Assembly: GCF_001677475.2 (NCBI RefSeq)
Contig: NZ_CP012497.1
Length of the DNA stretch: 64,000 nt
Direction: 5' to 3' (one strand)
From: Escherichia coli
GTDB lineage: Bacteria > Pseudomonadota > Gammaproteobacteria > Enterobacterales > Enterobacteriaceae
Under the pieces are notes generated by a model, which saw only the letters and a list, made by a program, of their open reading frames with translations, was not told the DNA's origin and searched no databases. Both the position numbers and the translations under genes were made by a program. Position 1 is the stretch's first letter. Each line of letters begins with the position of its first letter. Below, one piece after another: positions 1,595 through 64,000 of this stretch.

Positions 1595-2593
1595 TTATCC
1601 GTTACCGCACGACGGTTTCTGCGTGATAAACGTCTCAAGCATCTTTTCCGCAATTGCCGACCAGGTGTGACACTGGACCTTTTCAGCATTTTTCACGCGA
1701 TCAACGCGAGCAATAACCTCATCCCAATCAATCCGCGACTTGATAACCATATGGTTCACCAAAGCCAGGCGATCTGGCGGAAGGCAATCGGGAGGCGTTA
1801 ATACCAACGCCCCGCACATTGCCGCCTCAAGAACAGTTAATCCAAGGCTTTCGGGATGCGTAACGATAAAAACGTCACTCTTACGCAATTCAGCTGCAAA
1901 TTCGGTTGCTGGCACCGGCGTCCGTCTGTATGGAATTACCGAAATATTCCCCGGATCAATGGTAACCAATCCGTCATCAGTCAACGTTCTGGCCTCATAC
2001 GGAACGGTCAGACGCTGAAGGTTCATAAGGATACTTAAGGAGTGATCAAAACCACTAACATCAAATGCAGCGTGGTCTACAAAAATACGCAGAACATCGT
2101 CTGTTTTGGTTTCCAGATGGAACAGATCCTGATTCGCTGCCCATCCAACATGTTTGTTAAAGCGATTATGACGCTCTAACCTGCCGGGATTATCCAGGTA
2201 CCGCCAGGTATCATCGCGGACAGTAAAAGTAATATCGACTGGTGCCGAATCCAGCATAGAACCGTCGTATACCTGGGCTACCCATCCAGTGAATCGACGA
2301 CGCAGTTGCACGCCTATTTCCCTGGGCACCGTAGTAAAATACCGCAATCCTGGCGCTAAAATGGCTTTCGCAGAACACGAGGTCGCAGCGGTCAACACAG
2401 CTTCAACATAATCCTCCGGGCTTTCGACGCTGGGGGAATATGGACGATGGTATTGCAATGTTACCCCTGCCTCACTAAAGGCGCAGGCCAGGTTATAAGC
2501 CCACATTTCCGTATATGTTTTCACATCACTGATAGCTTCAAATTTTCGCCCAATGATCAGGATGTTCATCGGCTTTTCCTCATTCCATTGCAT
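1595..2593 (-). CDS. hypothetical protein downstream of ban (positional equivalent of P1 dbn)
   Basis: 332-aa ORF immediately downstream of and abutting the DnaB-like gene on the same strand. Confidence 0.45.
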   Translation of the reverse strand: MQWNEEKPMNILIIGRKFEAISDVKTYTEMWAYNLACAFSEAGVTLQYHRPYSPSVESPEDYVEAVLTAATSCSAKAILAPGLRYFTTVPREIGVQLRRRFTGWVAQVYDGSMLDSAPVDITFTVRDDTWRYLDNPGRLERHNRFNKHVGWAANQDLFHLETKTDDVLRIFVDHAAFDVSGFDHSLSILMNLQRLTVPYEARTLTDDGLVTIDPGNISVIPYRRTPVPATEFAAELRKSDVFIVTHPESLGLTVLEAAMCGALVLTPPDCLPPDRLALVNHMVIKSRIDWDEVIARVDRVKNAEKVQCHTWSAIAEKMLETFITQKPSCGNG

Positions 2594-3962
2594 TAATAAT
2601 CCTCTTGCCAGTCAGCACCGGCATAGTTATCAAACCGTGAGTATTGGCCGTTAAAAGCCAATCTCACCGTGCCAATTGGGCCATTTCGTTGCTTACCGAT
2701 AATTACCTCGGCAATGCCCTTCATTTCGCTATCCGGGTGATAAACTTCGTCACGATACAGAAACATGATCAGGTCTGCGTCCTGCTCAATTGCTCCTGAT
2801 TCACGTAAATCTGAATTTACCGGTCGTTTGTCCGCACGCTGTTCAAGCGATCGATTAAGTTGTGACAATGCCACCACCGGTACTTGTAATTCCTTCGCCA
2901 AAGCCTTCAGTGAGCGAGAAATCTCGGCAATTTCCAGCGTTCGGTTATCTTGCAGCTCGGGGACGCGCATAAGTTGCAGGTAGTCGATCATAATCATGCT
3001 CAAACCACCATTTTCTTTATAAACACGACGAGCGCGGGAACGAAGCTCTGTAGGTGTCAGGGCGCTTGAGTCATCAATAAAAATATTCTGCTTGTCCAAC
3101 AGAATCCCCATTGCGCCAGAAACCCGCGCCCAATCCTCGTCGTTAAGTTGCCCTGTTCGAATACGAGTCTGATCAACGCGTGCAAGAGAAGCCAGTGAGC
3201 GCATCATCAGCTGGTGGCTCGGCATCTCAAGGCTAAAAACCAATACGGGCTTATCGTTACGGACTGCGGCATTTTCGACGAGATTCATCGCAAACGTAGT
3301 CTTCCCCATCGATGGGCGGGCGGCGACAATAATGAGATCGGACGCCTGAAGTCCTGCCGTCTTCTTATTGAGATCGGTAAATCCGGTATCAAGCCCGTTA
3401 CACCATCATGCGGTCGCTGAAACAACTCTTCTATGCGAGATACCGTTGCATCGAGAATGCTGGCGATATCTTTTGGACCACTACCGCTCTTTTGTCGTTT
3501 TTCAGCTATTTCAAAAACGCGGCGCTCGGCCATATCCAGCAATTCATTGCTGCCCCTGCCATCCTGCGCATATCCAGCTTCAGCTATTTCATTTGCGACG
3601 GAAATCATTTCACGAACAACCGCGCGTTCACGAACGATATCCGCATAAGCACAAATATTTGCCGCGCTGGGCGTGTTCTTTGACATCTCCGCAAGGTACG
3701 CAAAACCACCGGCGCGTTCTAATTTACCGTTCTGTTCAAGTGCTTCAGCAAGTGTTATCAAATCAATCGGTTTGCCATGACTTAATAACCTCTCCATCTC
3801 ACTGAAAATTTCACGATGAGCACTGGTATAAAAATCATCAGCAACTATACGATCTGCAACTTCATCCCAGCGGCAGTTATCAAGCATTAAGCCACCAAGT
3901 ACAGCTTGTTCTGCACTAAGGGAATTTGGCATGGATTCAAGAGGGGATGCAGACATTAGCAC
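2593..3962 (-). CDS. ban: DnaB-family replicative helicase (P1 Ban-like), frame broken by a 1-nt indel
   Basis: N-terminal ORF 3285-3962 matches the DnaB N-domain up to HDGVTG; C-terminal ORF 2593-3309 starts MGKTTFAMNLVENAA (Walker A) with full RecA-like core; an alternate frame reads DTGFTDLNKKTAGLQASDLIIVAARPS bridging them; break at about 3388-3392. Confidence 0.85.
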
Positions 3963-4241
3963 TCCACCCAGGCGTGCTGAATGTCAGATATAATCGGCAT
4001 ACTCAAATCACTCCTAACGATATGAGTCATCACCAGAAAATCAGGATTAATGCGCCGGACTCTTCCCGGCTGTCACACCGAATCGCCAGGATGGTGAGTC
4101 CCTGTATCCGCTATCCCTCCAACGGTGACTTGCACATTTCGGCTACCTGGTTTGTTGCCTGAGCTAGGGGAAAAGGTAACCCCTTTAACGTTACCAGACC
4201 GCTAACGACGCATGTGCCAGACGCCGTGTTACAACCAAATA

Positions 4242-6799: not shown

Positions 6800-9700
6800 C
6801 TACACCTCGAGTGTCCCCTTACAAGACACAGAACGTCTGGCAAAAAGAGGTTCCACTCTGAAGCCACTGTCATGATAAAGCTCTCTGATGTTTGGCGCGC
6901 CACTGTTAGTAATGAGAACCTTTGCACCTCGACGATGAGCATCCGTCAACAGAGACACCAGGCGTTTTTGCTCTTCAAACTTAAAGTCATGACCGGAATA
7001 GTTCGTGAATCCCTCTGTATTTGGAAGCGGTTCATACGGCGGATCGCAAAAGATGACATCTCCTTCTCCGGCAGCTTCAATCACCGCTGCAAAATCACCG
7101 CATACAAACTCAGACCGCCCTTCCGCACCGAGGAAGGCTTCCATCTCCTGTAATGGGAAATACGGAGTTTTATACTTCCCGTAACCGACATTGAACTCAC
7201 CGGCCTGGTTGTAACGCGTCAATCCGTTAAAACAATGTCGGTTCAGGAACAAAAACGCCGCTGCGCGATGTAAATCATCATAGACTTGTTTGTTAAACGC
7301 ATTCCGTACTGCCAGGTATCCTTCCTGTGTGTTGTAGTCCTGGAAGAAACGATGTGCCAGAGTGATAAGTGAATGCGCCTCGCGTTGCAGAGTCTTGTAA
7401 AAGTTAATCAGGTCAGCATTCACATCATTTAGCAGATTTTCCTGGTATCCGGCATTCATGAAGACAGCTCCGCCACCAACGAAAGGTTCAATCAGGCGCT
7501 TCCCTTCTGGCAAATAGCGAAAGATTTGTTCCAGAACACCAAATTTTCCACCAGCCCATTTGAATATGGACCGTTCGAATTCTGCCGCTGGTTTAACTTT
7601 TCGCTCTTTTGTTTCACTTCCTTCTTTCTGCCGACATACGGCCTTAGTAATCCGATCGCCAATCCAGCGCATTACTGGTATTGCCATACTATTGCCGATC
7701 GCTTTGTAACGCGGTCCGTCAGCTGCAAGCATCGCGGCCTCTTCTTCGCTTAAATCTGGATAGTGATTGCGAAGATATGCCAGTTCATCTGAATTAACTT
7801 TTTTACGCTTTTCCGTCGGGATCAACGTATGCCCATCAGGAAAACCTTGCAGCCTTTCACATTCGACAGGGGTAAGACGGCGGACAGCTACTTCTGCGTT
7901 TCTTACTTCATAGCAAACAGCTGTTGGATTTTTAGCCATTAGAGATGGTGAAGTATTCTTAGTTGCAGCATGTTGTGTACCGCTCATACGCTCAGGAAAA
8001 GCCAATGTAACAAGATGCTCATGGCTTTCTTGCTCACGTGCCCGCAATGTACCATGCCCTTCTGACCAAAAACCTGCTCCTGTGCTGCTAAAAACGGCAA
8101 GGTCAGTGGCATCTTTAAAATCTCTTGCCTTTACTGTCGATGCGGTTTCATCGTCAATATATTCCCCAAATGCCGCCATCCTGAAAGCGTTTACGGCTTT
8201 CGTCGATTTCATACCGGGTGGCATGTCAGCGTGTAGGCATGGATTTAGGCTTTCGCCACTGATTGCAGCGCCATTTGCAATAATGGCGGAAGCGATTTCC
8301 TTCTTTTTTCGGCTCGGCGCAATATTCCGGCGCACGCCTTCGAACTCAAAAAGTACCGTTGCGGGATCGAGGTCTGTTCGAGCACTTGCGACAACAAACA
8401 CGCGTCGGCGTCGTTGTGCCACTCCGAAGTATTGGGCATCAAGGATTCTCCAGGCCACCTTTCGCTGCGGTCCATAAATACAACCACACTGCGGCCACTT
8501 TGGAGCATGGCAACCGGTTTTGCCATCCCACCGCCAGAACGCGTTACTTTTTCCTGATTCAGGTCGATCACCTGGTTCAAATGGCGCATCTTCTCCAGCC
8601 AATCCGGCAAGGAAACATCCGAAGGCGTTATCTGCCGATGACAGGACTCCTGGGACATTTTCCCAGACGATAACTGTCGGTTTGAGGAAGGACTCAGACC
8701 GTTTGTCGTCAATTGCATTTGCAAGCTCCACATACTTCAAAGTTAGCGCGCCGCGTTCATCATCAAGCCCACCACGTAAGCCCGCGATACTGAATGCCTG
8801 ACAGTTATGGACCACCGCACCATTGAGGATATAGGAATGATCACCTTCGACTTCTATGTTGTATACAGTATCTAGGCCTACCGATTTAAACTCTTTGACT
8901 GTTCGTAAAAGCATTCCATGAGCCAATCTTGATTTACGTGACAATTTCTGCGGGCAGATTGTTACCTGATAATAATTCCGTTGATTTACCACGCGATCCT
9001 CGATCACTTTTTTGGGCTCAACTTCAATAAAGCTGACCGAAGAAACATAACCACAAGTCTGTGACAACCCCGCAACGCCCCAAGCAAGCGCAGGACTAAC
9101 ACTATTAATTCTAAATCCCGCTTTACCACTTGGTGTCCCATCAGTATCAAGATAGCCTTGTAAAAACACATGACGCAATGGATGCGACATCACCCATGCA
9201 GGGATACGCTTAGCATGGCTTAACTCGCCAAAATGTTCATTAAGCCAATTGGCATAACACGTATCATTCAAGGTTACTTTGATGCTCCCTCGGATTTCGC
9301 TTGCCACGGAAAATATGTTTTCTGGTATGCGGCAATGAAACTTTCTCAATTTCTGGCAATTTATGCCAAAAACAACCGCCTTCTTAGATTTACCTCTCCA
9401 TCTCCTAATATATCCATCGCCAACATAAGCGCCCGCAAGATACATAGCCTGTTCTTCAGACAAGAACCGAGAACAAATATCTGGAGATGCAATATTGAAA
9501 TTAGTTAGAGCGCACCATTGATATCCCGGCATATCACATGCTGCTCGCCATTCCGGTTCAGACAACAACTCTCTCTTAAAATATGTGCCATTTTTCCGGG
9601 TGTTTTGGGCTTTCCACCGAACAGCCAGGAAGGGATGGTCATTGGTTGTTCTTATACCTAAAGGCTGCCCAACGGCATTAAGTAACCCCGTATTAGCTAT

Positions 9701-10056
9701 TTTTGAACCAACTCTTTTTACTTGTTGTAACCGCCCGAGATGACTGACTACGTAATCGCCAGGGCAAACATCTTCTATTGGTTTATAACCATTTTTACAA
9801 AGAACCATATGCCCCGCGGTAAAACATGGTGTTCCCCGACGAGCACGTCAGGGGATTCGATTTCCCCAGCCAAGACTTTTTTGGCAAGTTTTGTCATGTC
9901 GCCAAGGTTGGCGACATGGGGCCAGCGGAGCGCAAGAACGGCAGATGGAAAAGGCTCGATTTCAGCAAACCACGCCGGACGCATACCCAACGGTTCCCAG
10001 GCAATACTCGCGGCTTCAATTCCACTGCAAACAGATCCATAGCACAGCTCTTTCAC
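6800..10056 (-). CDS. dmt: bifunctional DNA methyltransferase (C5-cytosine domain plus Dam-like N6-adenine domain), intein-containing, frame broken near 9834-9837
   Basis: C5-MTase motifs [40 protein letters not shown]; Dam motifs FVGGGAV and DPPY at the C-terminus; GTG start overlaps the hrdC stop; the N-terminal 77 codons are in a different frame, joined across a C-run. Confidence 0.85.
8804..9826 (-). mobile_element. intein with LAGLIDADG homing-endonuclease domain, inserted at the catalytic Cys of the C5-MTase
   Basis: 341-aa insertion starting CFTAGHMVL and ending ILNGAVVHN followed by Cys+1 of CQAFSIAG; LAGLIDADG-like motifs [13 protein letters not shown] and [11 protein letters not shown]. 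Confidence 0.75.
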
Positions 10057-11696: not shown

Positions 11697-12484
11697 ATGC
11701 TGGAAAAAGACTACCAATTATCCGCATATAAAAAATTGGCCGCAGCCGGTGGGATGAAAACACCAGGTGCCATAACATCGGCACGAAGCAGTGCTAACAC
11801 GGCAAAACAGCTTGCAGAAGAATTGACCGGATTAATTTTGGATACAATTGTCTATCCTGACACTATTACCAGCTATGTTTCAACGATCAGAACAACCACA
11901 ACCGGCTTAACGAACATTGGAGAACTGGCAACTAAGCACGCGGACCTGTTGGCTGGTTATGCAGATCTGTCAATGCTGCTTCAACTCGATATTGGTTGGG
12001 ATGTTTACTGCCGTGCTAATGAGCGAGAAGTTTCAGAACTGCCAATCTCTATTGCCATTGGTGATGTGACTATTACTAAATCGCTTGAGGACGCTGTAAA
12101 CGCGCTTAATACATCAAGTTTAGTCGCTGCTATGGGGAGATTAACCAGACCCTTAACACTGGCTCTGAAAGCTCGTCAGGCACTGGTTCAGGCGGCGGCA
12201 CTGCCATTCCCCCACCAGCACTAACAGAAAAGCAAATTGAAGCTCTGAAAGTAGCAACTGAACAGTTTGGGGGAGTTTTCAACCAAACAACAGCGCCCAC
12301 TGTTGCATTGCAACAGCAGTATGAACGGGCGAAGGAAAGCGCCAGCATAGCCATAACTGCTTATGGCCATGCTATTGGTACCGCGCTTGCGGAAGCATCA
12401 GCAAATAAGACCAGCACAGCCAGCGCAGTCGCCGCTTTGGTTCCTGATTCTGTTCTTGATGAATTAAACAAAGCGGCACAGTAA
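11697..12484 (+). CDS. hypothetical protein, frame broken at a G-run
   Basis: 175-aa ORF 11697-12224 continues in another frame to 12484 (GSGGGTAIPPPALTEKQIEALKVATEQ) if the G4 run at 12134-12137 is G5. Confidence 0.4.
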
Positions 12485-17410: not shown

Positions 17411-17505
17411 CCCCGCATAAAAAATTTAAAAAATTACTTTTCGCGAGAAAGTCAACAAGTGACTTTCAATAAAATCTCTTCCGAAAAGGGATTCACACAA
17501 GTGCC

Positions 17506-30415: not shown

Positions 30416-30772
<357 letters not shown>

Positions 30773-31803: not shown

Positions 31804-32393
31804 TTAATAACCGGGCGTTAACGCTCTTATATCGCTCAGTGTGGACAGCAGGGAAAGTTGCTCTTTCATCTCGCGCTGGCGTTCGTGGATTTTAAAGCCC
31901 TCCGCCACCATGGCCACCATCATGGCATCGTTCAGCGCAATAAGTTTCTCCCTGGTCAGTACGACGTTGTTATTATCCGCATCAGTCCAGAAAAATCCCT
32001 CCGGAAGCAGTCCGGCCTGCGCTGCTGCAACCACGGGGCAAGGCGTGACTGCGAGGTTTTTCCGCCATCAAAACGACGGCCATCAAACGTGAAAATAAAC
32101 TCAACGTTTTCCTGACTGTCGCGCCATGCCTCAATTTCCCGCCTTTTGGCATCCTTTGCCGCTGCAATAAGTTCCGGCGTGACGGTGAACGGGGCGATTT
32201 CGCCCCATTTCCCGCTTTGCAGCTCCTGCCAGATGTGCTGGCCTGTCGGGGCCATATCATCCTGTATGGCAGTATACAGGGCGAACTCCGTTTCACCTTC
32301 AAATAACACCTCGCAGTCAACCGCACCATTTTCAAGATAATGTGCGTTTCTGATACCTTTCACCGCTCTGATTTTCATGCCTGATTTCCTCAT
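31804..32393 (-). CDS. tail fibre assembly protein, frame broken at a T/A run near 32057-32061
   Basis: ORFs 31956-32393 and 31804-32034 are N- and C-terminal parts of one Tfa-like protein; an alternate frame reads KNLAVTPCPVVAAAQAGLLPEGFFW across the junction. Confidence 0.6.
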
Positions 32394-43815: not shown

Positions 43816-43823
43816 GCGGCCCC

Positions 43824-47386: not shown

Positions 47387-47464
47387 GACTCTGCCTTTTA
47401 AAAGGCAGTTAAAAGGGCATTCGCAGCGCCTTTTAACTGCGGGTTACAGATTACGGATGACGGG

Positions 47465-48370
47465 TTATGCCGGGGTGGTGATGTACGGGCTGTCCACGAT
47501 CTCCACATCCTTGTACCAGATGTTGGAATCGCCGCCGTTAACCAGCATGGCGTCAATAATGAGCTTCGCGTCCGCACGGTTTTTCGGCCCCACCACAAGG
47601 GTGGTCGGGCGGATGCCCAGCGGCTCACCGTTGGTGCCCTTCATGCCCCGCAGCAACTCATTGGCTTTTTTGTAGTTCTCCACCGTCAGTGCTGCACGGG
47701 AACCGACGGCGGTCTGCCAGAAGCCGAAGCCCGCATTACAGCGACCGTCCACGCCGTACAGGAACTCGTGGTTCTTGAAGGTGTGCTCGCTGTTCAGATC
47801 GTCCAGGGCTTCAAATTTAAAGGCGCGTCGCGTCTGCCAGATGATGGGTTTCAGCACCTGCGACTCATCAATCAGAAACCACGGTTCGCCCTGGTCCGTT
47901 CCTGGTGTACCGACAACGTTGCTGTAGGTGCCGTCGCCCAGCGGGTGGTCTTCATCAAAGAAGTTCTGGCCGTCAAAGCACAGGGTGTTAAACCCGGCAC
48001 ACAACAGGGCGTAACACAGCTTGTCCGGGAACACAGCAGTCATACGGCCATAGCGTTCGGCGGTAATGCTGTACTGACCTATCTGGTCATCTTCAATGTG
48101 TTCGCGCTTAACGCGAATGGAACTTTCCCAGAGTTTGTTGGTGATGGTGTAACCATAACCGTCCAGCGTTGCCAGCTGACGCTCACCGACCCATTCTTTG
48201 ATGTCCGGTAAATCTTTCATCCAGCCGTAGGTGTTGGAGGCGGACGAACTCGGCACCTCAGAAGCAATACGATTCCACTGCGGTTCGACACCACTCAGTC
48301 CACGGGTAAAGGCGGCGCTCAGGCAGGTGGTCAGTGCATGAAGGATTTCAGAACTGATAGTCTGTGACAT
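47465..48370 (-). CDS. major head subunit (Mu T-like)
   Basis: 301-aa ORF following the protease/scaffold gene. Confidence 0.75.
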   Translation of the reverse strand: MSQTISSEILHALTTCLSAAFTRGLSGVEPQWNRIASEVPSSSASNTYGWMKDLPDIKEWVGERQLATLDGYGYTITNKLWESSIRVKREHIEDDQIGQYSITAERYGRMTAVFPDKLCYALLCAGFNTLCFDGQNFFDEDHPLGDGTYSNVVGTPGTDQGEPWFLIDESQVLKPIIWQTRRAFKFEALDDLNSEHTFKNHEFLYGVDGRCNAGFGFWQTAVGSRAALTVENYKKANELLRGMKGTNGEPLGIRPTTLVVGPKNRADAKLIIDAMLVNGGDSNIWYKDVEIVDSPYITTPA

Positions 48371-48377
48371 GTGTTAC

Positions 48378-49334
48378 TTACTCCTGTTTCGGTTTAGCGG
48401 CGAGGAACTCTTCCCCGGTAATACCCATGCTGCGGCACATCGCCAGTTCGGTGTCGGTCAGTGTCTGCGCGGGTTTATCCTTGCCCTGGCTGGGCTTGTC
48501 GTTGTTCACCAGCGGCTGTGCGCCTCTGGTGTACTCCGCAAACTGTTTGCGGCCTTCTTCCGTGCGGCAGGTGGCAAGGAACATGTCACGGTTTGCCGGG
48601 GCCACTTTTCCGGCTTCGATGGCCGCATCCACAAGCGCTTCTGCTTCCTTCTCTTCAAGTTGCTGAAGGCGTTGTTCTGCGGTTTCGGCACGGTTCAGGG
48701 CCAGATTGTGGGTTTCCACCGGCACAAACTTCGTCAGATCAGGTGTCTGTGCGCGGTTCAGCGCCACCTGTTCGTTCTCCTGAAGTTGTTTAATGGCGGC
48801 CACGGTATCGTCCACCGTGGCAGATTCAGCCAGCCCAAGCAGGCCGGTGATTTGCACAGGTACTGTCATCAGGTTTTTCTCCGTATTCAGTGCAGGAAAA
48901 TCCAGGTTAGGTTTGTTGGTCAGCCCGACGCTGGACAGGCGCGTCACTACGCCTTCCGCGTCAAAGAAAAACGCCGGGCTGTAATAGCGGTAGCGGCGCT
49001 CGCTCAGCATCCAGCGGGCGGACTCGCTCCAGACAACACGCCCTTCAATGGTGCTGCTGTCCGTCACCCGCAGTTCTTCCACCCAGCCATACGCCGGAGC
49101 ATCTTCACCACGCGGGCCTTTAATTTCGGTGGCGTGTTCAATATCCACCGGAATTTTGATGCCGGACGAACGGGCAACCACCTCATGCGGATTGCGGTTA
49201 ATCCACGTCCGGCCATCGCGCCCGGTGAACTCACCCGCAGGGACAAGTTCGAGCCATTCCGGCAGTTGAGCAGGTGTCAGCTCAGGGATGGGTTCTGGCA
49301 GGGAAAAACACAGCGCCAGCAGTTCCGGTTGCAT
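48378..49334 (-). CDS. head protease/scaffold protein (Mu I-like)
   Basis: 318-aa ORF; N-terminal protease-like region, C-terminal coiled coil (LQQLEEKEAEALVDAAIEAG). Confidence 0.65.
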   Translation of the reverse strand: MQPELLALCFSLPEPIPELTPAQLPEWLELVPAGEFTGRDGRTWINRNPHEVVARSSGIKIPVDIEHATEIKGPRGEDAPAYGWVEELRVTDSSTIEGRVVWSESARWMLSERRYRYYSPAFFFDAEGVVTRLSSVGLTNKPNLDFPALNTEKNLMTVPVQITGLLGLAESATVDDTVAAIKQLQENEQVALNRAQTPDLTKFVPVETHNLALNRAETAEQRLQQLEEKEAEALVDAAIEAGKVAPANRDMFLATCRTEEGRKQFAEYTRGAQPLVNNDKPSQGKDKPAQTLTDTELAMCRSMGITGEEFLAAKPKQE

Positions 49335-49380
49335 GTCAGTCTCCGTCGTCTGGGGTTACCGACGGTCAGTATGCGGAAGG

Positions 49381-49410
49381 CAGAAAAAAAGCCGGATTTA
49401 CCGGCTTCAC
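49381..49410 (-). terminator. intrinsic terminator between F and I
   Basis: On the minus strand TGAAGCCGGTAAATCCGGC followed by T7; identical copy at 57113-57140. Confidence 0.55.
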
Positions 49411-49547
49411 TGAAAACGGGGAAATACCCCCTTCAAAACCCCTTCAAAAACGCCACAGCATCTTCAAAAACGTCAGAATGCACATTCACGCCATCAGAAT
49501 AAAAAACGCGTTTCTGATGCGTTTCAGGGGGATTTACGGCGGGAGGG

Positions 49548-50276
49548 TTACTCACTGTCAAAACGGGCCTGTTTTGTCGCCAGCTGGCGCGCCAGCTCCT
49601 GCTCACGGTTTATACCGGGATTGTAGTTCCAGCCCGGATCAATCCCTTCCGGCACCTCTTCCTCTTCGCCCGTACGTTTGTTCACCCAGCGGACAGTCCT
49701 GATTTCCGGCGCTTCGGTGTGAATGGTGCCCTGTGCCGCCAGTTGCGCATACTCACCACGGCTGACCTGACGGATGGTGCATTTGCAGCCCCAGCCGTTA
49801 GGGGCGAAATGCGTCTGCCAGAACGGGTGGTCTACAGGCAGACACAGACGCGCCCATTTCACATGCTCCGCCCGGTGCTCGCGGGATGGCCCCAGCTCAT
49901 AAATCAGATACGGCATGGCCCGCTTTGTCCGCTGAATGCGTTCCCACTGGCCCGCCGCGCGGGCGGTGCGCATGTTGGTGTCAAAAATCGTGCGGAGGCG
50001 GCGGTCGCTGCCCAGTTGCACGGTGCGCCTTTCGCCCGTCAGCGGATCATCCATCTCCTGTACGCCCCACCATCCGCGTTTTATCAGCAGCGGTTGCAGC
50101 ATCTCCCGGAACTCGCTGAACGTCTGCCCGCTTTGCAGGGCGTCTTCCACAAGGGATTTCACATCCGACAACAAATCCAGTTGCAGCATTTTTGCCACGG
50201 TGAAGCTGTTCCGGTGTTCTTCCCGCCACACATCCCGGTAATCAAAACCGGGCGCAGCTTCTTCGCCTTCAGCCAC
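49548..50276 (-). CDS. head morphogenesis protein (Mu F-like)
   Basis: 242-aa ORF directly downstream of the portal gene. Confidence 0.65.
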   Translation of the reverse strand: MAEGEEAAPGFDYRDVWREEHRNSFTVAKMLQLDLLSDVKSLVEDALQSGQTFSEFREMLQPLLIKRGWWGVQEMDDPLTGERRTVQLGSDRRLRTIFDTNMRTARAAGQWERIQRTKRAMPYLIYELGPSREHRAEHVKWARLCLPVDHPFWQTHFAPNGWGCKCTIRQVSRGEYAQLAAQGTIHTEAPEIRTVRWVNKRTGEEEEVPEGIDPGWNYNPGINREQELARQLATKQARFDSE

Positions 50277-50303
50277 GCCAGCGCCTCTTTCGGGATGAGG
50301 GTT

Positions 50304-51875
50304 TCACGCATGACCAGTGTCTCCCAGCGCACGGGCCTTAAAGCACACCTCCGCCAGTTGCAGGGCAAAGTCGTCCGCGTTCAGCGTTTCCTGAAGCTCA
50401 GGCAGGCGTTTCAGAAAGTCATCAAAACTGTCGCATTCCTGCGCCAGTGTCAGCACCGGGTTTGTGAACGCCTCGCCGGTTTTCTGCCAGTCACGCAGGG
50501 CATCATCCACCATCTGTGCCAGTTCGTCGGGGTGTTCCCGGTTCAGGGCGACGCGCTCGTGGTTCATCGCCATATCACCTGACATTCCGGCAGACACCGG
50601 ATGCAGAACATCAGCCCCTTCGTCCGGTTCCGCCAGGCCGAACCGATCCCGCAGCTCCGATTCCTGAACCCGCATCCCCCGGTCAATCAGTGGCACCAGA
50701 GCATCAGTCAGCGCCTTCAGATCTTCGGCTTCACTGATACGCAGAACAACACGGGGATAGTGCGCCTGTGGCCCGTAGTTGGCCTCGATGTAGGGACGCA
50801 CCAGATATTCATTCAGCGTGTTAGCCAGCTGTCGCGCGTCCCAGCGCACAATGTCCATGCGCACCTGATTGTGCACGTCCGCCTGTGAACGCGAACTGCC
50901 ATTATCTGTGGTCATGGTCTGCCCCAGTACGGCTTTACTGATTTGCGCATCGCACCATTCAGCCATTTCACGGAACAGCGCGCCGCCGTTATTCCGGCTG
51001 GCGGTTTCCTGCATCTCCAGTTGCATGGACTGCGGAATGGCACACCCGGCATCTGAGGCAATGGAGGCAATCGCATCAATCAGCACGCGGATTTGCTCCT
51101 CCGTGGCGTTGGGACCGTATTTCCCCACCGTAACCGGAATGCCGAATTTTTCCGCAAATGCCCACCAGTCACGCACGGTAAAGGATTTCAGCATATACAT
51201 CACAGCCACCAGACGGGCCAGACCGTTACGCAGCGGCAGACCGGATTTCAGACGCGGCTGGTGAACAATGAATTTTCCCGGTGTCAGCGGTACGCCATCC
51301 ACCGGTTCATCGTCAGTCAGCAGGCGGAACCGGCGCAGAGTGGGCTTTTCGGCTTTCAGAAAACGGGGATCAACCCACTCATAATCACGGGGCACCCAGT
51401 GGTTGTTGCGGGTGTTCCACAAAATTTCACAGACCGCCACGCCTTTTCCCAGCCCGTCGAGCAAATCAAACATCAGCTCGGGGATTTGCGGGGCTTCCAT
51501 CAGCGCACGTATGGCATCCGCCAGCTGTACGTCGGCATCGTCATCACTGGCAGCCACCACCACCGGTTCAATACCCGCCACCGTCAGCTTGCGGGTGCGC
51601 AGCACCGAGGCGTAATGCAAATCGCGTTCTTCCATCTCTTCGGCAAGGATAAAAAAATCACGCGTGATACCGTTGGCGGCATTGCGCAGAATGCCTGCCA
51701 GCCTGCCGGGATTCAGCCCGGAGGCGATGCTGATGCCCGGCGAGGCCGGACGCACGCCAGCCTGACGCGGACGGGCCTGTGCTTCGTTGAGCGCCTCTTT
51801 TTTCAGCGTGTCTTCCTCACCGGTTGCCGGGTTCAGCAGACGGCGTGCGGCCCCGGCCTGTTGTTTCTGGTTCAC
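50304..51875 (-). CDS. portal protein (Mu gp29/H-like)
   Basis: 523-aa ORF; GTG start overlaps the terminase stop (GTGA). Confidence 0.8.
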   Translation of the reverse strand: MNQKQQAGAARRLLNPATGEEDTLKKEALNEAQARPRQAGVRPASPGISIASGLNPGRLAGILRNAANGITRDFFILAEEMEERDLHYASVLRTRKLTVAGIEPVVVAASDDDADVQLADAIRALMEAPQIPELMFDLLDGLGKGVAVCEILWNTRNNHWVPRDYEWVDPRFLKAEKPTLRRFRLLTDDEPVDGVPLTPGKFIVHQPRLKSGLPLRNGLARLVAVMYMLKSFTVRDWWAFAEKFGIPVTVGKYGPNATEEQIRVLIDAIASIASDAGCAIPQSMQLEMQETASRNNGGALFREMAEWCDAQISKAVLGQTMTTDNGSSRSQADVHNQVRMDIVRWDARQLANTLNEYLVRPYIEANYGPQAHYPRVVLRISEAEDLKALTDALVPLIDRGMRVQESELRDRFGLAEPDEGADVLHPVSAGMSGDMAMNHERVALNREHPDELAQMVDDALRDWQKTGEAFTNPVLTLAQECDSFDDFLKRLPELQETLNADDFALQLAEVCFKARALGDTGHA

Positions 51876-53406
51876 AGTAAACCTCCCTCATTTTTCAGGC
51901 CGCGCGTCAGCTTCAGCTGGCGGCGCGCGTTGCGTTCTTCCGGTTTCGCCGGGCGGTTCAGACGGTGCAGTTCGTAACGGTGGCAGTCATCTTTACTGGC
52001 AAGGAAGCCCAGGAAAATGGCCACAGCGGCGTCGCCGTGACGTTTGTGACCGTCGCTGCCTCTGGTTCGTGAATCATCAATGCCGGGAACGCCACGCAGT
52101 AACTGAATGGCCCGAGGTCATTGATCACGTCTTCATGCTTCGGAAGGATCAGCTCATCATCTTCAAACGCCGCACGGAAACGGGGCATGTTTTCACGGTA
52201 AAACGCCACGGACAGCATCACCTGTTCCACCTCGTCGCCGTACCGCTCCGCCGCCTGTTCTGCCAGATACTGACCATTCCCCCGCGCATCCATTTTGATG
52301 CCGTCACGACGGGGCAGACGATCGCAAAGCCAGAACAGTACCTGCTCCTGCTGTTTAAACGGCACATTGGCAAGCTCAACCAGGAACGGCACCTCGCGGG
52401 TGGTGTCGTCGTTCACCGTCACCGGGGCCAGCACAGTCAGGTCACCCGAACGCGCAAAGTCTTCCCCCAGACAGTGGCGCAGGTTCTGTGGGAGTTTTTC
52501 CAGTTCAGGGCGCACCACCGTTTCCAGCCATTCCCGGATATCTGCCCGGCGCTGGCTTTCCGTCAGTGCGTTAAATTCCGGTGTGCCGGTAAAGCGCAAC
52601 ACTTTTCCGGTGCCACGGGCTGCACGTTCACGCATTGAGCGGGGGATATACGTGCCGCCGCCGTTTTTCGGGACGCAGTAATATTCCTCCAGGGCGTCTT
52701 CGCGGGTGGCGGTATTTCGCAGCAGGCCTTCTTTCCATTCCGCCTCGGCCTCCGGTGACCACTCCATGCCGCGTACCTGACAGATACGCCGGTACAGCCC
52801 GTCACTGCAGGCGTCATCCAGCGTGATGGTGTGAATACGGTAATCTTTTTTGCCTGCGCGGCTCTCCTGAATCAGCTGGTTAAACGGGTTGTCCACGCCG
52901 TCATGGGTGGAGATAAGGCGAACCTTACCGCCCCACGTGGTCAGTGGTGTGACCGCCTTGAGTACCTCATCCAGTTTTTCATGAAACGCCGCTTCGTCGA
53001 TGGTGACATTCCCCTGCATCCCGCGAATGTTGCCCGGATTGCTGGACAGCGCCTTGACCTTAAAACCGCTGGCGAAGTACACGACGAACGTCAGAATGTC
53101 CATGTCTTCGTCGGTGATCACTTCCTCGCGGATTTCTTCCGCTGCCGCATTAAACGCTTTCGCCCACATCGCTACGGCGTCGATAAATTCGCGGGCCATC
53201 TCCTTATTCGAACCGATATAAAAGTGATCGCGCCCGCCGTTTTCCTTCTTCAGTGATGCGGTCAGTGCTGCATCTGCCGCTTCCGCCCAGGTTAACCCGG
53301 TACGGCGTGATTTCTCGGCGATTTTCAGTTTTGAATCATCCGCCACCCAGCGTTTCTGATACGGCAGCAGAACATCGGATTCACTGAACGTGTTCATCTG
53401 TGTCAT
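51872..53406 (-). CDS. terminase large subunit (Mu gp28-like), frame broken near 52111-52113
   Basis: ATPase N-domain; the ORF-track C-terminus is out of frame, and the corrected frame gives ..GVPGIDDSRTRGSDGHKRHGDAAVAIF.. ending at a stop that overlaps the portal start. Confidence 0.8.
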
Positions 53407-55234: not shown

Positions 55235-56237
55235 TTCAGCCCCGCAGACATTTTGTGACGGCTTGATTTGCTGTAACGGGCAAAGCCGTCAAGGGTTCGC
55301 ACGCCGAGATAGCCCAGCGCAGGGGTAAGCAACATCAGCGTGATATCCCAGTCCGGTGTTGGCATATGCAGCGTGATACCTCTGGCACCGGCAACGGCTC
55401 CGGCAATCTGGCCGCAGGAGAGCAACAGCACATAGGCCAGACCGCTGTAACAGGAAAGGCGGGCCAGCAGCGGGCGCGTCTGGCGCACATAGCTGTCCGT
55501 GGCGTTGTCACCATTGCGGATGGTTTCCTGCTGTTCGTGGTGTGCGGCCTGCTGGTCAGCCAGCACCAGCTTCTGCCGCTCCACCTCCAGTTGTTGCAGC
55601 TGAATTTTCAGGGTTTCCAGTTGTATCTGTTGTTCCGGTGGTAACATCGCCATCTTCTGTTCCAGAACGCGCTGCTGTTCAGCCACCGGCAGGCTTTCCC
55701 GGACGCTTTCCACCATACCGGCCACCGAGTCAGCGGCGGCAGATGTACCGCCACCAAACCAGCGCCCGACGGAACGAATCAGCCCCGGCCCGGCTTTCAG
55801 CAGAACGGAGGCGATGCCTGAAAGGGTTAACGGATCCACGGGAAACCTCCATACAGATAACGCTGAAGACAGAGCAGAGCGCCGCAACCGCCACCACACA
55901 GCCAGAACACCGGGTGTGCCGGTGACATCATCATCAGCGTGCTGAAGACGCAGCAGAAATATCCCAGCGCCCAGACCACCCATGACCACACGATGATGTG
56001 GCGACCAAAAGCCCGGTAACGGACCTCAGGCAGCAGGCGAAATGGCACATTCCCGAGGCTTGCGCTGTATGAAAACAACACCACCCCGGCAAAGGACAAC
56101 AACATCAACACGAACGATCGCCAGCCACATAACATGCTGATGATGAACATACAGAGCGTCAGTCCGGCCAGCGGCCATGGGGTTCTCATCAGTCGGGAAC
56201 AAATCAGCCAGTCACACAGTTTTAAAATTTTGTTCAT
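55231..56237 (-). CDS. polytopic membrane protein (lysis cassette), probably one gene split by an indel near 55840-55845
   Basis: ATG at 56237; multi-TM N-part in ORF 55827-56462; the frame of ORF 55231-55989 continues with coiled coil and C-terminal TM segments. Confidence 0.35.
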
Positions 56238-56462
56238 AACCTTTTTCCACATTGAATTTTTCCCTGTACTTCTGGCACTGCCAGAAAATGTCCCGTGTAT
56301 CCACGGAGTTCCAGCCACGCATGTAGTAGCTGGCGTGTGTGCCGTCATGGCCGGTATAGTCCAGCGGTTTCGGGGCGGACCTCCGGCCATGCGGTGCAGA
56401 ACCTCCTGACGCAGGCGGTCGCGCCGCCCGGCTTTCAGAGAGGCATCCCAGCCTTTGCCCAT
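56212..56462 (-). CDS. small protein downstream of the endolysin, frame broken at a G-run (56372-56375)
   Basis: MGKGWDASLKAGRRDRLRQEVLHRMAGGPP continues in another frame as KPLDYTGHDGTHASYYMRGWNSVDTRDIFWQCQKYREKFNVEKGYEQNFKTV. Confidence 0.3.
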
Positions 56463-60453: not shown

Positions 60454-60873
60454 TCAGTGCACCGGGAGTTCGAATCGTGCCGACAGCATATGCCGCACAG
60501 ATAGCTGAACCGCTTTCAGGGCAAGGGAAGAATACGTCCCCTGCGTCCAGCCTTTCGCCATTTGCCGGTAATCGCGCCAGATGTTCTTCCACTGCTCCCG
60601 TGCGTCCGGGTCTGACGCGCTGATGTATTCGCGGTCCATGACGTATTCCCATAAATCCACATTGAAGGCATTGCCAAACGTAATGGCGCGGAATACCGCC
60701 TCCCCGCAATAACGCGCACAAATGCTGTAATGGTCAAATGCAATCAGGTAAGTCTTTTCGCCATACCCCTCAACTTCGCGCGCGCAAATAAACTCGCGTA
60801 AGTCTCTGCCATTGTTATTACGCATTTTAATTCGAATTAATGCCTGAATTTCGTTTCTGATTTTGGCTTTCAT
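60454..60873 (-). CDS. hypothetical early protein
   Basis: 139-aa ORF. Confidence 0.4.
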   Translation of the reverse strand: MKAKIRNEIQALIRIKMRNNNGRDLREFICAREVEGYGEKTYLIAFDHYSICARYCGEAVFRAITFGNAFNVDLWEYVMDREYISASDPDAREQWKNIWRDYRQMAKGWTQGTYSSLALKAVQLSVRHMLSARFELPVH

Positions 60874-60893
60874 TGTCAGAGTTCCTTTATGAA

Positions 60894-61163
60894 TTAATGT
60901 TTGGCTGCATCCGGTTTATACCGGAATAACTCGCCTTCGGCTTCCAGTCCAAGTTGTCTGGCTGACTTCAACAACTCCTGGGTTGCTTTTTCAATAATTT
61001 CAGGAGCCATGCTCTTGATAATGCCTGCCATTACGTCATGTGGTCCGATTTGCTCCTTAGGAGACCGTTCTTCCAGTTGCACACTCATTCCTACAAAGAA
61101 ACCTCCTTTTTTCTGAAACTCAACATCTTCCATGCGGTTAAATTCAAAGATTACTTTTGCCAT
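60894..61163 (-). CDS. hypothetical early protein
   Basis: 89-aa ORF. Confidence 0.35.
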   Translation of the reverse strand: MAKVIFEFNRMEDVEFQKKGGFFVGMSVQLEERSPKEQIGPHDVMAGIIKSMAPEIIEKATQELLKSARQLGLEAEGELFRYKPDAAKH

Positions 61164-61174
61164 TTTGTTTCTCC

Positions 61175-61429
61175 TTATTGATTCTGAATAACTGCGCTGA
61201 CCTTTATTTTCGCGCCTTCTACCTGTTTAAAGAAAACACCACTACACCACGGACAACATGTGAAGGAGTCCCATACTTCATTTTCGGGGGAACTTTGCGT
61301 CATAAGTTGTTTGCCACATCCTGGGCATTTATATGTCGTCAAAGGCACTCCGTGGCGCTGACAATGTTTAACCCACTCAATATATTTTCCAGACCTGATA
61401 CTCATCGTTATCTCCAGATAATCTGACAA
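61175..61429 (-). CDS. zinc-finger small protein (Mu kil-region)
   Basis: 84 aa with CPGCG and CCPWC motifs. Confidence 0.4.
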
Positions 61430-61635
61430 CCATTAAGACGGGCCGTCCATACTGAACGGGCAACCCCGGATTTATGCTCCATAATCCTGACAGCGTTTCT
61501 GACCAGCTCTGGTGGCGGGCAGGTGATTTCAAGCACCGGGCGGGCCACGCCCAGCCAGGATTCGTTGACGTGGCTGCCGCGCTCCTGTAACCAGGTCTTT
61601 ACTTCCGTTGCCATTTTGATATTCCGTGACATCAT
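61408..61635 (-). CDS. hypothetical small protein downstream of B
   Basis: 75-aa ORF. Confidence 0.3.
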
Positions 61636-61647
61636 GGTTTATGCCCC

Positions 61648-62601
61648 TTACTGCCAGTTCAGCAACTTAGGGTTGCTGTAAGCCTCCTTAAAAGCCGCTT
61701 TTATGTGACTTTTATTCAGGGATGAACCAGCACCTTTCGCCGCCAGCCACGCATGATTCAGTGTGTGAGTTAATACACGCAATCCCCCGGGCTTTTCGGC
61801 AACCCTCATCAGCAGATCCAGCTCATCTTCCTGTGTTACTCCCCATGCTTTGGCTACAGCCATCACATCAGTCTTTTTCACTTTGCGCAGTTGTTTTGTC
61901 ATGGCAAAACGGCTGAACAAACGAGCCAGTTCATCAGTCCCACGACGGGTGGCATCCGCCATCTGTTTCGGGTTGCCAATTAAAACCATCCCCACGCCAG
62001 TAGCATCCTGAATGGCGCGTAATTGCTCCAGACCATCCACACTTAAGTGATCAGCTTCATCAATAATCAGCAGGGGGTTAACACGGCCACTGGTTTCTTT
62101 ACCACCGCCCAGTTTTCTGCGAATGGCGCGGGTTATATTCCCCTTATTTCTTCCCGGATTATTAATTTCCAGCGCATATGCTATTTCAAGGAGGCATTCC
62201 GTTACGCTCGAATGTGCCGGTGCAAGCGTCACCATCCAGGCATTAGCTGTCTTGCGGCAATATTCCCGTGCAGCAAAAGTTTTGCCGACACCCGGTACGC
62301 CAACAACAACACTGATAATCCCGAGTGAGCGCACTGTTTTAAACAGCTCATGCAAATCACAAAATGTCTGGGTCTTCACAACGCCGGGGGCACCTGACAA
62401 ATTCTGCCCTTTTTGCCAGACCCGATACCATTCCTGTAATTTGTCATGCATACCTTCGACATTGCCTTTGTATTCTCCTTTACGCAGAGCCGAGAGTGTT
62501 GCCGGAGACATTCCGGCCTCATCAGCAATATCTTCCTGGGGCTTGTCGCCCTCGTTGATCAACGTATTAATAGTGTTGAAAACATCATCAATATCAGTCA
62601 T
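61648..62601 (-). CDS. B: transposition ATPase B (Mu B-like)
   Basis: 317 aa, colinear with Mu B as recalled (Walker A GVPGVGKT, IIDEADHL, ARLFSR). Confidence 0.85.
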   Translation of the reverse strand: MTDIDDVFNTINTLINEGDKPQEDIADEAGMSPATLSALRKGEYKGNVEGMHDKLQEWYRVWQKGQNLSGAPGVVKTQTFCDLHELFKTVRSLGIISVVVGVPGVGKTFAAREYCRKTANAWMVTLAPAHSSVTECLLEIAYALEINNPGRNKGNITRAIRRKLGGGKETSGRVNPLLIIDEADHLSVDGLEQLRAIQDATGVGMVLIGNPKQMADATRRGTDELARLFSRFAMTKQLRKVKKTDVMAVAKAWGVTQEDELDLLMRVAEKPGGLRVLTHTLNHAWLAAKGAGSSLNKSHIKAAFKEAYSNPKLLNWQ

Positions 62602-62676
62602 AGTATTTCCTCCATCATTACAGATTCACTTTGTTTTCCTTGTTTAACAGTCCGTTCCCGCGGACTGTTTTTTTAT

Positions 62677-64000
62677 TCAGGCCAGCGGATCATCTTCTTC
62701 CTGCATGGCAAAAAGTTTTTGCATCCCCAGTCTGAAATCGCGTTCAAATTCTTCGTCATGCTCTTCTTCATATTCCGGTTGCTGAACGGCCACCACATTA
62801 CCAACCGGGCGATAAACATTATCCAGCCAGGGTTCAGCCTGTTTGTGTTCCAGAATCTGAATACCTTCATCTTCAGCATCGCGAATTTTTTCCTCAGCGC
62901 GTTTGCGCATCCCTTTAATACGCTGCTGTTGTTTGTGATATTCCGCACTGACAGGGAAGGCTGCGCGTTTATTGCCGTTCCATATCGCCTCACAGATAAA
63001 GCTGCCGTCCTTGCGACGTACCGTAATTCGCTCGGCGTCATGAATGTCATAACTGATAAGCACTTTGCGACCGTGTTCGTCACGCAGCTCCGGCGCGTAA
63101 TAAATATTGCCAAGCCATTTGATTTCACAGCGTTTTACCGGACGCTCCACCATCGGGCGGAACATGTCGCGCAGCTCAAGATCACTCAGCCACTCAATTT
63201 CGGTGTCTTCTTCTGCCAGGCGTTTTTTTCTGAACTCTGCCGGGCTGTAATGCCGCCCGTTCGGTTTCATAGGCAGCTCAGAATGCGGGCGGTTGTTGTA
63301 CCATTCCACGCCTTCACGAATAGCCTCAATAAGCTCCGCCCACGATGGTAGCTCGCGCATTGCAGCTTTCTGGCGGTCGTTCAGAGGCTTGTCCTGTTGC
63401 AGGGCGTTAAACGCTGAACGCAGATCACGGTTAAGTACACGCAACGATTCCCGGTCAGCACCCTTGCCAAAATAGGTGCGATACCTCCTGGCTATACGCA
63501 TCGGCAGTGTCCGGTTCAGGCGTTCAATAATGCCGCGCCCCTGTGGATTACCGGCAATACCTGTTGGGTGTTTAATCCCCAGGCGGGCAGAATACCCACG
63601 ACCTCTTTGTCAAGCATGTCAGCCGTTTCACCAGAACCGTTATCCGAGTAATACAGGAACGGTTTTCCGTGGTTGCGAATGCCGTGCTGTATCGCTCCGG
63701 CAACGGCGAAAACGTTCTCGGCAAGATCAAGACTCCAGCCAACAACAAACCGGGTTCCACCGTCGATCACAAACGTGACTTCTGGTGAGAATGGACGCCC
63801 GTGGATCGGATGCGCACATTTCAGCTTCATACCGTGACCGTCACCAATCCAGACATAATTCACCGGCATAGCTGTCCAGTCGCGGCGGGTGAATCCTTCA
63901 AGCTGACGGTATTCACTGCCGGTAACACGGCCTTTTTGTTTCACCACTTCCGGCAATTTCTTCATGGCATAACGAACCACATCGTAAGAGGGCATCACCT
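62677..64000 (-). CDS. A: transposase A (Mu A-like), 5' end beyond the window, frame broken at a C-run (63577-63580)
   Basis: ORF 63516-63998 carries the DDE catalytic core (YYSDNGSGETAD) and ORF 62677-63501 the C-terminal domain; an alternate frame reads GIKHPTGIAGNPQGRGIIERLNRTLPMRIARRY across the junction. Confidence 0.85.

What the first reader, a model, noticed from the sequence alone, without database searches (positions are those of the whole stretch)
2593..63998. Recurrent single-base frameshifts in homopolymer runs split at least eight conserved genes
ban (about 3388-3392), dmt (C4 at 9834-9837), the 11697 ORF (G4 at 12134-12137), the tail fibre assembly gene (T5 at 32057-32061), terminase large subunit (CCC at 52111-52113), two lysis-region genes (about 55840-55845 and G4 at 56372-56375) and transposase A (C4 at 63577-63580) each read through perfectly in a second frame if one base is added to a homopolymer. 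In every case the alternate frame restores conserved sequence, for example DTGFTDLNKKTAGLQ in Ban and GIKHPTGIAGNPQGRG in MuA. A uniform deletion bias in homopolymers across unrelated essential genes points to sequencing or assembly indel error rather than pseudogenisation. This matters for every ORF boundary in the window.
Basis: seen in the sequence. Interest (0 to 1): 0.5.

Follow-up and report, generated by a model that had tools for sequence, protein, structure and literature searches.

The report
Homopolymer deletion errors splitting phage genes
Nine one-base deletions in short G/C runs, eight of which break conserved phage genes, are almost certainly consensus-calling errors of this one assembly, because independent assemblies of the same plasmid and prophage are otherwise identical and carry the extra base; four further "frameshift-like" run lengths are genuine natural alleles.

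Summary
The window is a P1-like plasmid-prophage (1-30723) carrying a Mu-like prophage (30724-64000).

The site at 55840-55845 is an ordinary gene overlap. Two homopolymer positions were misplaced.

Exact-protein look-ups found more than ten independent assemblies of the same lineage. About 57.5 kb of the window lies in stretches with zero substitutions against one of them.

Against these, the window's only private differences are nine 1-bp deletions. There are no substitutions and no insertions. All nine are in G/C runs: 5 of 56 true 5-mers, 4 of 245 true 4-mers, 0 of 645 A/T runs of 4 or more. They are at 299-302, 3394-3396, 9834-9837, 32035-32038, 43820-43823, 50250-50252, 52111-52113, 56372-56375 and 63585-63587.

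That pattern indicates consensus error, not decay.

Four other short runs are shared by the independent assemblies and are natural alleles: 1592-1596, 6815-6818, 12134-12137 (upfB) and 17411-17414.

The dmt run also carries a real -1 in another, clean lineage, so that one site is less certain.

Verdict: mostly an artefact, of low biological interest, but important for annotating this window.

The parts
299..302 (+). C4 run in P1 gene 6 (tail length). It is C5 in all relatives. Window-only 1-bp deletion that splits gp6 into ORFs 8..313 and 409..924.
   Evidence: Nine independent contigs, five of them with 0 mismatches (L042, L043, L044, L046, L047), have C5.
3394..3396 (-). CCC run in ban (DnaB-like helicase). 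It is CCCC in relatives. Window-only deletion that splits ban into ORFs 3285..3962 and 2593..3309.
   Evidence: Other public contigs with a split ban are broken elsewhere and still have CCCC here.
9834..9837 (-). C4 run (G-run on the coding strand, encoding the GG of VGGTPC) in dmt. It is C5 in the five contigs of the identical lineage. Window-only within the lineage, but the same -1 recurs in other lineages.
   Evidence: L015-L018; L042. Recurrence.
32035..32038 (-). G4 run in the DUF4376 tail-fibre assembly gene of the Mu-like prophage. It is G5 in relatives. Window-only deletion.
   Evidence: L068-L070 have 0 mismatches over 1.6-1.8 kb and this single gap.
43820..43823 (-). C4 run in the 8-nt spacer between the sheath stop codon and the tube start codon (RBS region). 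It is C5 in relatives. Window-only deletion, intergenic.
   Evidence: L031 has 0 mismatches from 35017 to 52972 and carries C5; L032-L034 agree.
50250..50252 (-). G3 run 60 nt into the Mu F-like head morphogenesis gene. It is G4 in relatives. Window-only deletion.
   Evidence: L065 and L067 have 0 mismatches.
52111..52113 (-). CCC run in the terminase large subunit gene. It is CCCC in relatives. Window-only deletion. The gene reads 53406..52078 in one frame and 52111..51875 in another.
56372..56375 (-). G4 run in a small Mu gp18-like gene (83 aa in relatives). It is G5 in relatives. The window-only deletion fuses it to the next gene as the 211-aa ORF 55827..56462.
   Evidence: Pfam PF26867 on the intact homologues.
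63585..63587 (-). G3 run in the MuA transposase gene. It is G4 in relatives. Window-only deletion.
   Evidence: L084 has 0 mismatches over 60737-64000 and this single gap.
12134..12137 (+). G4 run in upfB (G5 in P1 and P7). This is a natural allele of the lineage, not an error. It gives a 175-aa product.
   Evidence: The exact 175-aa product is on at least 6 independent contigs. L015-L018 are identical to the window here.
6815..6818 (-). C4 run near the 3' end of dmt. It is a natural polymorphism within the lineage: C4 gives a 1085-aa Dmt, C5 a 1095-aa Dmt.
   Evidence: C4 in L015, L017 and L046; C5 in L016 and L043.
1592..1596 (.). T5 run between gene 5 and dbn (T6 in P1). Natural allele of the lineage.
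   Evidence: No gap in the 0-mismatch contigs L042-L044, L046 and L047.
17411..17414 (.). C4 run between parB and gene 23 (C5 in more distant relatives). Natural allele of the lineage.
   Evidence: No gap in L015-L017.
55830..55839 (-). Normal 10-nt overlap of two intact genes (a 202-aa and a 136-aa product).
   Evidence: Both proteins align in full at 99.5-100% identity in a single frame each. There is no indel against L008.

Best explanation
The window comes from an assembly whose consensus is correct base for base, except that it systematically under-counts short G/C homopolymers. True G/C 5-mers are called as 4 in about 9% of cases, and true 4-mers as 3 in about 1.6%.

Nine such under-calls lie in the 64 kb. 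Eight fall in coding sequence and artificially split gp6, ban, dmt, the DUF4376 tail-fibre assembly gene, the Mu F-like head gene, the terminase large subunit, a gp18-like gene and MuA. The real plasmid and prophage most likely have all of these genes intact.

Shown here: the deletions are private to this assembly, they are restricted to G/C runs, and no substitutions accompany them.

Inferred: they arose in base-calling or consensus of an error-prone, probably long-read-only, assembly rather than in the cell. The platform cannot be identified from the sequence.

Four other short runs that look the same when compared with phage P1 are real alleles of this plasmid lineage: upfB G4, dmt 3' C4, and the intergenic T5 and C4.
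For: 1. Independent assemblies of the same lineage exist.
- GCA_002516285.1 has 0 mismatches over window 1-22224 and over 35017-57784.
- Others are GCA_012921415.1, GCA_012665465.1, GCA_018683295.1, GCA_033745465.1, GCA_016125675.1, GCA_032411005.1, and Logan assemblies of SRR25942434 (a contig seen in 12 samples), SRR11608754, SRR3929499 and ERR10434848.
- 57.5 kb of the window lies in stretches of at least 1.5 kb with zero substitutions against one of them.

2. Against these assemblies the window's private differences are 9 single-base deletions, 0 insertions and 0 substitutions.
- In mismatch-repair-defective E. coli, indels are about 15% of point mutations: 5,324 indels against 30,061 substitutions (PMC8510543).
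- At that share, 9 of 9 differences being indels has a probability of about 4e-8.

3. All nine deletions are in G/C runs: 5 of 56 true 5-mers and 4 of 245 true 4-mers. None is in the 645 A/T runs of 4 or more, including 18 A/T runs of 7-8 nt (Fisher p = 3e-5). The natural indel rate rises exponentially with run length (PMC8510543), so that spectrum would hit the long A/T runs first.

4. No sign of decay.
- There are 0 in-frame stops in 65 genes.
- Private coding substitutions, measured against relatives that differ by 2-5%, are mostly synonymous: 69 synonymous to 20 non-synonymous in the P1 part and 88 to 42 in the Mu part, with 0 nonsense. This matches intact RefSeq relatives.

5. Split genes of this kind mark noisy public assemblies. 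Other contigs with a split ban have many other genes split and are broken at different places. False deletions at 4-5-nt homopolymers are the dominant residual error of long-read assemblies (PMC12007338; PMC8812927).

6. Adding the base that the relatives have restores 97-100% identical full-length proteins.
Against: - No reads were available, so the error is inferred rather than observed.
- The source record could not be retrieved. It is probably a 136,480-bp E. coli plasmid whose dmt fragment is QTP16660.1, locus tag GJ11_p00475. Its sequencing platform is unknown.
- That the comparison assemblies are accurate short-read drafts is inferred from their fragmentation and accession types, not verified.
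- The dmt run shows a genuine -1 in an otherwise clean lineage (L085: one gap in 19.5 kb). This proves that at least this run mutates in nature.
- Four look-alike short runs in the same window are real alleles, so run length alone does not identify an error.
- The strict G/C specificity, with untouched A/T 7-8-mers, is not the textbook nanopore profile. Kastor found more A/T-associated than G/C-associated deletion errors.
Confidence: 0.9

Rival explanations
1. The nine deletions are real mutations. This isolate carries a defective P1-like plasmid and a defective Mu-like prophage that are decaying by frameshift.
For: - None of the eight broken genes is needed for plasmid maintenance; repA, parA and parB are intact.
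- Real homopolymer alleles exist in this lineage: upfB and the dmt 3' end.
- A real -1 in the same dmt run exists elsewhere.
- Related prophages in RefSeq carry occasional annotated frameshifts.
Against: - There are zero private substitutions over 57.5 kb alongside nine indels. This is incompatible with any measured E. coli mutation spectrum.
- There are no nonsense mutations, insertions, larger deletions or IS elements.
- Only G/C runs of 4-5 are hit, while the A/T runs of 7-8 that should mutate most easily are untouched.
- The genuine dmt pseudogene in L085 looks different. It is split into three ORFs although it has only one gap, which implies an added stop, and it has 51 substitutions to its nearest relative.
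- More than ten sister assemblies all have intact genes.
Confidence: 0.05
2. The deletions are real and were produced in one burst by a frameshift-specific process that targets G/C runs. Candidates are Pol IV (DinB)-type stress-induced -1 frameshifting on episomal DNA, or exposure to an acridine/ICR-191-type mutagen. This idea rests on established knowledge, not on a test done here.
For: All events are -1 in G/C runs with no substitutions. That is the qualitative signature of such processes.
Against: - The density is about 1.4e-4 per bp. Genome-wide it would mean several hundred frameshifts, which is not viable. No known process confines such a rate to a plasmid.
- The Mu-like and P1-like parts are hit at similar density.
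- No independent isolate shows even one of eight of the nine events.
Confidence: 0.02
3. The split genes are expressed through programmed ribosomal frameshifting or transcriptional slippage at the runs, or the runs are phase-variable switches.
For: The breaks sit in homopolymers. The dmt run and the dmt 3' run do vary in length among natural plasmids.
Against: - Identical-lineage sequences encode the same proteins as single uninterrupted ORFs.
- The runs are only 3-5 nt, whereas contingency loci use runs of about 7 or more.
- Eight of the nine sites show no length variation in dozens of relatives.
- Variation is in one direction only.
Confidence: 0.01

Closest known systems
Residual homopolymer-length errors in long-read-only bacterial assemblies, which cause artificial gene fragmentation (described for example in PMC12007338 and PMC8812927)
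   Same: Single-base false deletions at runs of 4-5 identical bases, an otherwise perfect consensus, genes split into two adjacent ORFs that rejoin when one base is added, and errors detected by comparison with close references.
   Different: Here the errors are confined to G/C runs, and A/T runs up to 8 nt are untouched. The nanopore example read here found more A/T-associated deletions. The platform is unknown.
Pseudogenisation of defective prophages
   Same: Structural and replication genes of two prophages are interrupted by frameshifts.
   Different: There are no nonsense mutations, no insertions, no larger deletions, no excess of non-synonymous change and no private substitutions at all. 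Sister assemblies are intact.
Natural homopolymer-length alleles in P1-like plasmids (upfB G4, dmt 3' C4/C5, dmt G5 to G4 in another lineage)
   Same: One-base differences in short G/C runs relative to phage P1, which change reading frames.
   Different: These are shared by independent assemblies of the lineage, or occur in a clean assembly with accompanying substitutions. The nine window-only sites are not.

Membership tests
Sequencing/assembly homopolymer indel artefact | The difference is confined to the length of a homopolymer run. | tested here: met
   All 9 window-only differences are 1-bp shortfalls in C or G runs.
Sequencing/assembly homopolymer indel artefact | The difference is private to one assembly, while independent assemblies of the same clone or lineage agree with each other. 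| tested here: met
   More than ten independent assemblies with 0-3 mismatches over kilobases all carry the longer run. Exception: the dmt run also reads C4 in L019, a noisy contig of another lineage.
Sequencing/assembly homopolymer indel artefact | No accompanying substitutions, and a systematic direction and base bias. | tested here: met
   0 substitutions and 0 insertions in 57.5 kb. The split is 9 of 306 G/C runs of 4 or more against 0 of 645 A/T runs, p = 3e-5.
Sequencing/assembly homopolymer indel artefact | Raw reads or an orthogonal technology show the longer run in the same DNA sample. | not testable with these tools
   The source contig was not found in the viral, genome or metagenome collections. 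No reads are available.
Decaying/defective prophage (pseudogenisation) | A mixed lesion spectrum (nonsense, +1 and -1 indels, larger deletions, IS elements) and relaxed selection. | tested here: not met
   0 stops in 65 genes. Only -1 events are seen. Synonymous to non-synonymous counts are 69:20 and 88:42, like intact relatives.
Decaying/defective prophage (pseudogenisation) | The lesions are inherited, that is, shared by close relatives. | tested here: not met
   Not met for the nine window-only sites. Met for upfB G4 and dmt 3' C4, which are therefore classed as natural alleles.
Programmed frameshift / transcriptional slippage | The split-ORF arrangement and the slippery run are conserved in relatives. 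| tested here: not met
   Relatives, including those with 0 mismatches, encode single ORFs: ban 454 aa, gp6 338 aa, TerL 511 aa, F 254 aa, MuA 694-698 aa.
Phase-variable contingency locus | A long tract (about 7 or more) whose length varies in both directions among isolates. | tested here: not met
   The runs are 3-5 nt. Eight of nine sites are invariant in all relatives. Only the two dmt runs vary among natural plasmids, so that part is inconclusive.

The most novel reading that the evidence does not exclude
The nine -1 deletions are real. On this reading, a P1-like plasmid carrying a Mu-like prophage was hit in one isolate by a G/C-run-specific, substitution-free frameshift process, such as Pol IV-type stress-induced mutagenesis focused on an episome, which inactivated eight phage genes at once.

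A milder version concerns only dmt. Its G5 run sits three codons before an intein inserted at the catalytic PCQ motif. It may be a recurrent natural off-switch for the cytosine-methyltransferase half of Dmt.
Probability: 0.04. Interest if true: 0.5.

Novelty: not a real feature. Interest (0 to 1): 0.12.

Why it matters
This matters mainly for annotation. Eight genes in this window should be read as intact: gp6, ban, dmt, a tail-fibre assembly gene, the F-like head gene, the terminase large subunit, a gp18-like gene and MuA. The plasmid and prophage should not be scored as defective.

There is also a methodological point. Comparison with references that differ by 2-5% made four genuine lineage alleles look like errors. 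Only assemblies of the identical lineage separated artefact from natural variation.

If the same error rate holds for the whole source genome, at about one error per 7 kb, several hundred of its genes would be falsely frameshifted.

Tried and rejected
1. It gave 13 'window-private' homopolymer deletions. Four of them (1591, 6814, 12133, 17410) were later shown to be shared by assemblies of the identical lineage, so the 13-site list was dropped in favour of 9.

2. I searched for the source contig with an exact 34-mer across the P1/Mu junction in viral contigs, genome contigs and metagenome contigs. It was not found.

3. Exact look-up of the tail-fibre protein found nothing on record.

4. The 238-aa Ban C-terminal fragment lies on 46 contigs, which at first suggested a circulating ban frameshift. 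I rejected this. Those contigs are noisy or N-gapped, they break ban elsewhere, and they have CCCC at 3394-3396.

5. I tried to name the platform from the literature. That homopolymers are a weakness is documented for PacBio Quiver and for nanopore, but nothing I read pins down a G/C-only profile, so no platform is claimed.

6. A search for a paper on a 136,480-bp plasmid found nothing.

7. Programmed frameshifting and phase variation were considered and rejected, because sister sequences have uninterrupted ORFs.


Full report
**What the window is**

- Bases 1-30723 are a P1-like (IncY-type) plasmid-prophage. It is about 98% identical to phage P1, phage P7 and over a thousand plasmids.
- Bases 30724-64000 are a Mu-like prophage lying on the minus strand, from mom/com at the low end to MuA at the high end. 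It has no close relative among deposited phages or plasmids. It is 94-97% identical to chromosomal prophages of E. coli.

**Checking the observation**

I took the annotated proteins of close relatives and ran tblastn against the window.

- Ten coding frame switches appear in nine genes: gp6, ban, dmt (two sites), upfB, a DUF4376 tail-fibre assembly gene, the Mu F-like head morphogenesis gene, the terminase large subunit, a small gp18-like gene and MuA.
- Identity on both sides of each switch is 88-100%.
- None of the 65 genes tested has an in-frame stop.
- Two are in the right gene but at the wrong run. The tail-fibre assembly gene is short at G4 32035-32038, not T5 32057-32061. MuA is short at G3 63585-63587, not C4 63577-63580.
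- The claimed site at 55840-55845 is not a frameshift. Two intact genes overlap there by 10 nt, as in relatives, and there is no indel.

**First-pass pattern**

Against six references for each half, the window had 13 one-base deletions shared against all references and no insertions. Twelve of the 13 were in G/C runs. RefSeq-quality references had 0-2 private 1-bp indels each.

The window's private coding substitutions were mostly synonymous and included no nonsense change, just like intact relatives: 69 synonymous to 20 non-synonymous in the P1 part, and 88 to 42 in the Mu part. At that stage everything pointed to error.

**The decisive comparison**

I looked up the window's own ORF products by exact sequence. 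I then fetched contigs encoding exact copies of neighbouring proteins. This uncovered many independent assemblies of the very same lineage.

- GCA_002516285.1 has zero mismatches to the window over 1-22224, and again over 35017-57784.
- Other draft assemblies cover other segments with 0-3 mismatches. They include Logan assemblies of sequencing runs, one contig of which is seen in 12 samples.
- In all, 57.5 kb of the 64 kb lies in stretches of at least 1.5 kb with zero substitutions against some independent assembly.
- One of these contigs spans the P1/Mu junction at 100% identity (window 26850-32025). The plasmid-borne Mu-like prophage is therefore itself real.

**Result of that comparison**

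The 13 sites fall into two classes.

- Four are shared by the independent assemblies and are therefore natural alleles of this lineage.
  - T5 at 1592-1596.
  - G4 in upfB at 12134-12137. Its 175-aa product is encoded on at least 6 contigs.
  - C4 at 17411-17414.
  - C4 at 6815-6818. This one is polymorphic within the lineage and only changes the last residues of Dmt (1085 aa against 1095 aa).
- Nine are found only in the window. Every independent assembly has one more base at each of them.
  - 299-302 (gp6)
  - 3394-3396 (ban)
  - 9834-9837 (dmt)
  - 32035-32038 (tail-fibre assembly)
  - 43820-43823 (intergenic, between sheath and tube)
  - 50250-50252 (F-like gene)
  - 52111-52113 (terminase)
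  - 56372-56375 (gp18-like gene)
  - 63585-63587 (MuA)

**Why the nine are best read as errors**

- The window's private differences from its own lineage are nine deletions, no insertion and no substitution.
- Even in mismatch-repair-defective E. coli, small indels are only about 15% of point mutations: 5,324 against 30,061 substitutions (PMC8510543). At that share, nine of nine being indels has a probability of about 4e-8.
- Natural indel rates rise exponentially with run length (same paper). Here 5 of 56 G/C 5-mers and 4 of 245 G/C 4-mers are affected, while none of 645 A/T runs of 4 or more is, including eighteen runs of 7-8 nt (Fisher p = 3e-5).
- There is no other sign of decay: no stops, no insertions, no larger deletions and no excess of non-synonymous change.
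- A genuine dmt pseudogene found in another lineage (L085) looks different. It has one gap in 19.5 kb, 51 substitutions to its nearest relative, and a second break that must be a stop codon.
- Public contigs with a split ban are generally noisy, with many broken genes, and they break ban at other positions.
- False deletions at 4-5-nt homopolymers are the typical residual error of long-read-only assemblies (PMC12007338; PMC8812927).

**Caveats**

- No reads could be examined and the source record was not retrievable. Protein accessions suggest it is a 136,480-bp E. coli plasmid.
- That the comparison assemblies are accurate short-read drafts is my inference.
- The dmt run at 9834-9837 encodes the GG of VGGTPC, three codons before an intein inserted at the catalytic PCQ motif. 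It is also one base short in a noisy contig of another lineage (L019) and in a clean one (L085). It is therefore a hot spot for real mutation, for error, or for both, and this single site is less certain than the other eight.
- The strict G/C specificity is not the profile reported for the nanopore example I read, so I do not name a platform.

**Verdict**

- It fails for upfB, which is a natural allele, and for 55840-55845, which is not a frameshift.
- Biologically the finding is ordinary. Its value lies in correcting eight gene models and in showing that only identical-lineage comparisons separate artefact from natural homopolymer alleles.

Noticed in passing
window 30723/30724 (junction); 26850-32025: The right (mom) end of the Mu-like prophage abuts P1-like DNA, truncating a P1 gene (ORF 30440..30772). 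So the Mu-like phage is inserted in the P1-like plasmid. An independent draft assembly (GCA_018683295.1, L074) spans the junction at 100% identity, so the arrangement is real and is present in more than one isolate.
   Followed up: partly
window 6800-10056 (dmt, minus strand): Dmt of this lineage (1085-1095 aa) contains an intein (Hint_2, Intein_splicing and LAGLIDADG_3 domains, residues about 77-418). It is inserted exactly at the catalytic PCQ motif of the C5-cytosine methyltransferase domain (…VGGTP|C…HN|CQAFS…). P1's own Dmt (754 aa) lacks it.
   Followed up: partly
window 9834-9837; L085 10220-10224; proteins P0002-P0005: The same G5 run of dmt (coding strand) is one base short in several other sequence backgrounds. 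One is a clean assembly series (SRR14239359 and five similar contigs) in which dmt also carries a second break. This suggests that natural inactivation of the cytosine-methyltransferase half of Dmt recurs in P1-like plasmids.
   Followed up: partly
window 11697-12481 (upfB): upfB is naturally truncated to 175 aa in this plasmid lineage. It is also more diverged from P1 (88-93% aa identity) than the neighbouring genes (98-100%), which suggests a mosaic or decaying accessory gene.
   Followed up: partly
L002 (AP027478.1, plasmid pLR-13_1): This public plasmid has five private 1-bp indels in 23 kb, a split dbn and a truncated dmt. It probably carries assembly errors of its own.
   Followed up: no
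window 33544-35016: All 34 mismatches between the window and the otherwise identical prophage of GCA_002516285.1 cluster in the tail-fibre and tail-fibre-assembly region. This is consistent with a swapped host-range cassette, or with collapsed repeats in the draft assembly.
   Followed up: no
window 41131-42975: The tape-measure protein is only 54% identical to that of the closest complete prophage (E. coli RM9088), while flanking genes are 96-100% identical. This looks like a mosaic replacement.
   Followed up: no
the nine window-only sites: Read in the C orientation, 8 of the 9 under-called runs are preceded by G and 7 of 9 are followed by G (G-Cn-G). This may be a context signature of the sequencing or consensus method.
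   Followed up: no
window 28000-30300: A low-GC segment (34.5%) inside the P1-like part encodes small hypothetical proteins and an SH3-domain protein. It is shared with a subset of P1-like plasmids.
   Followed up: no
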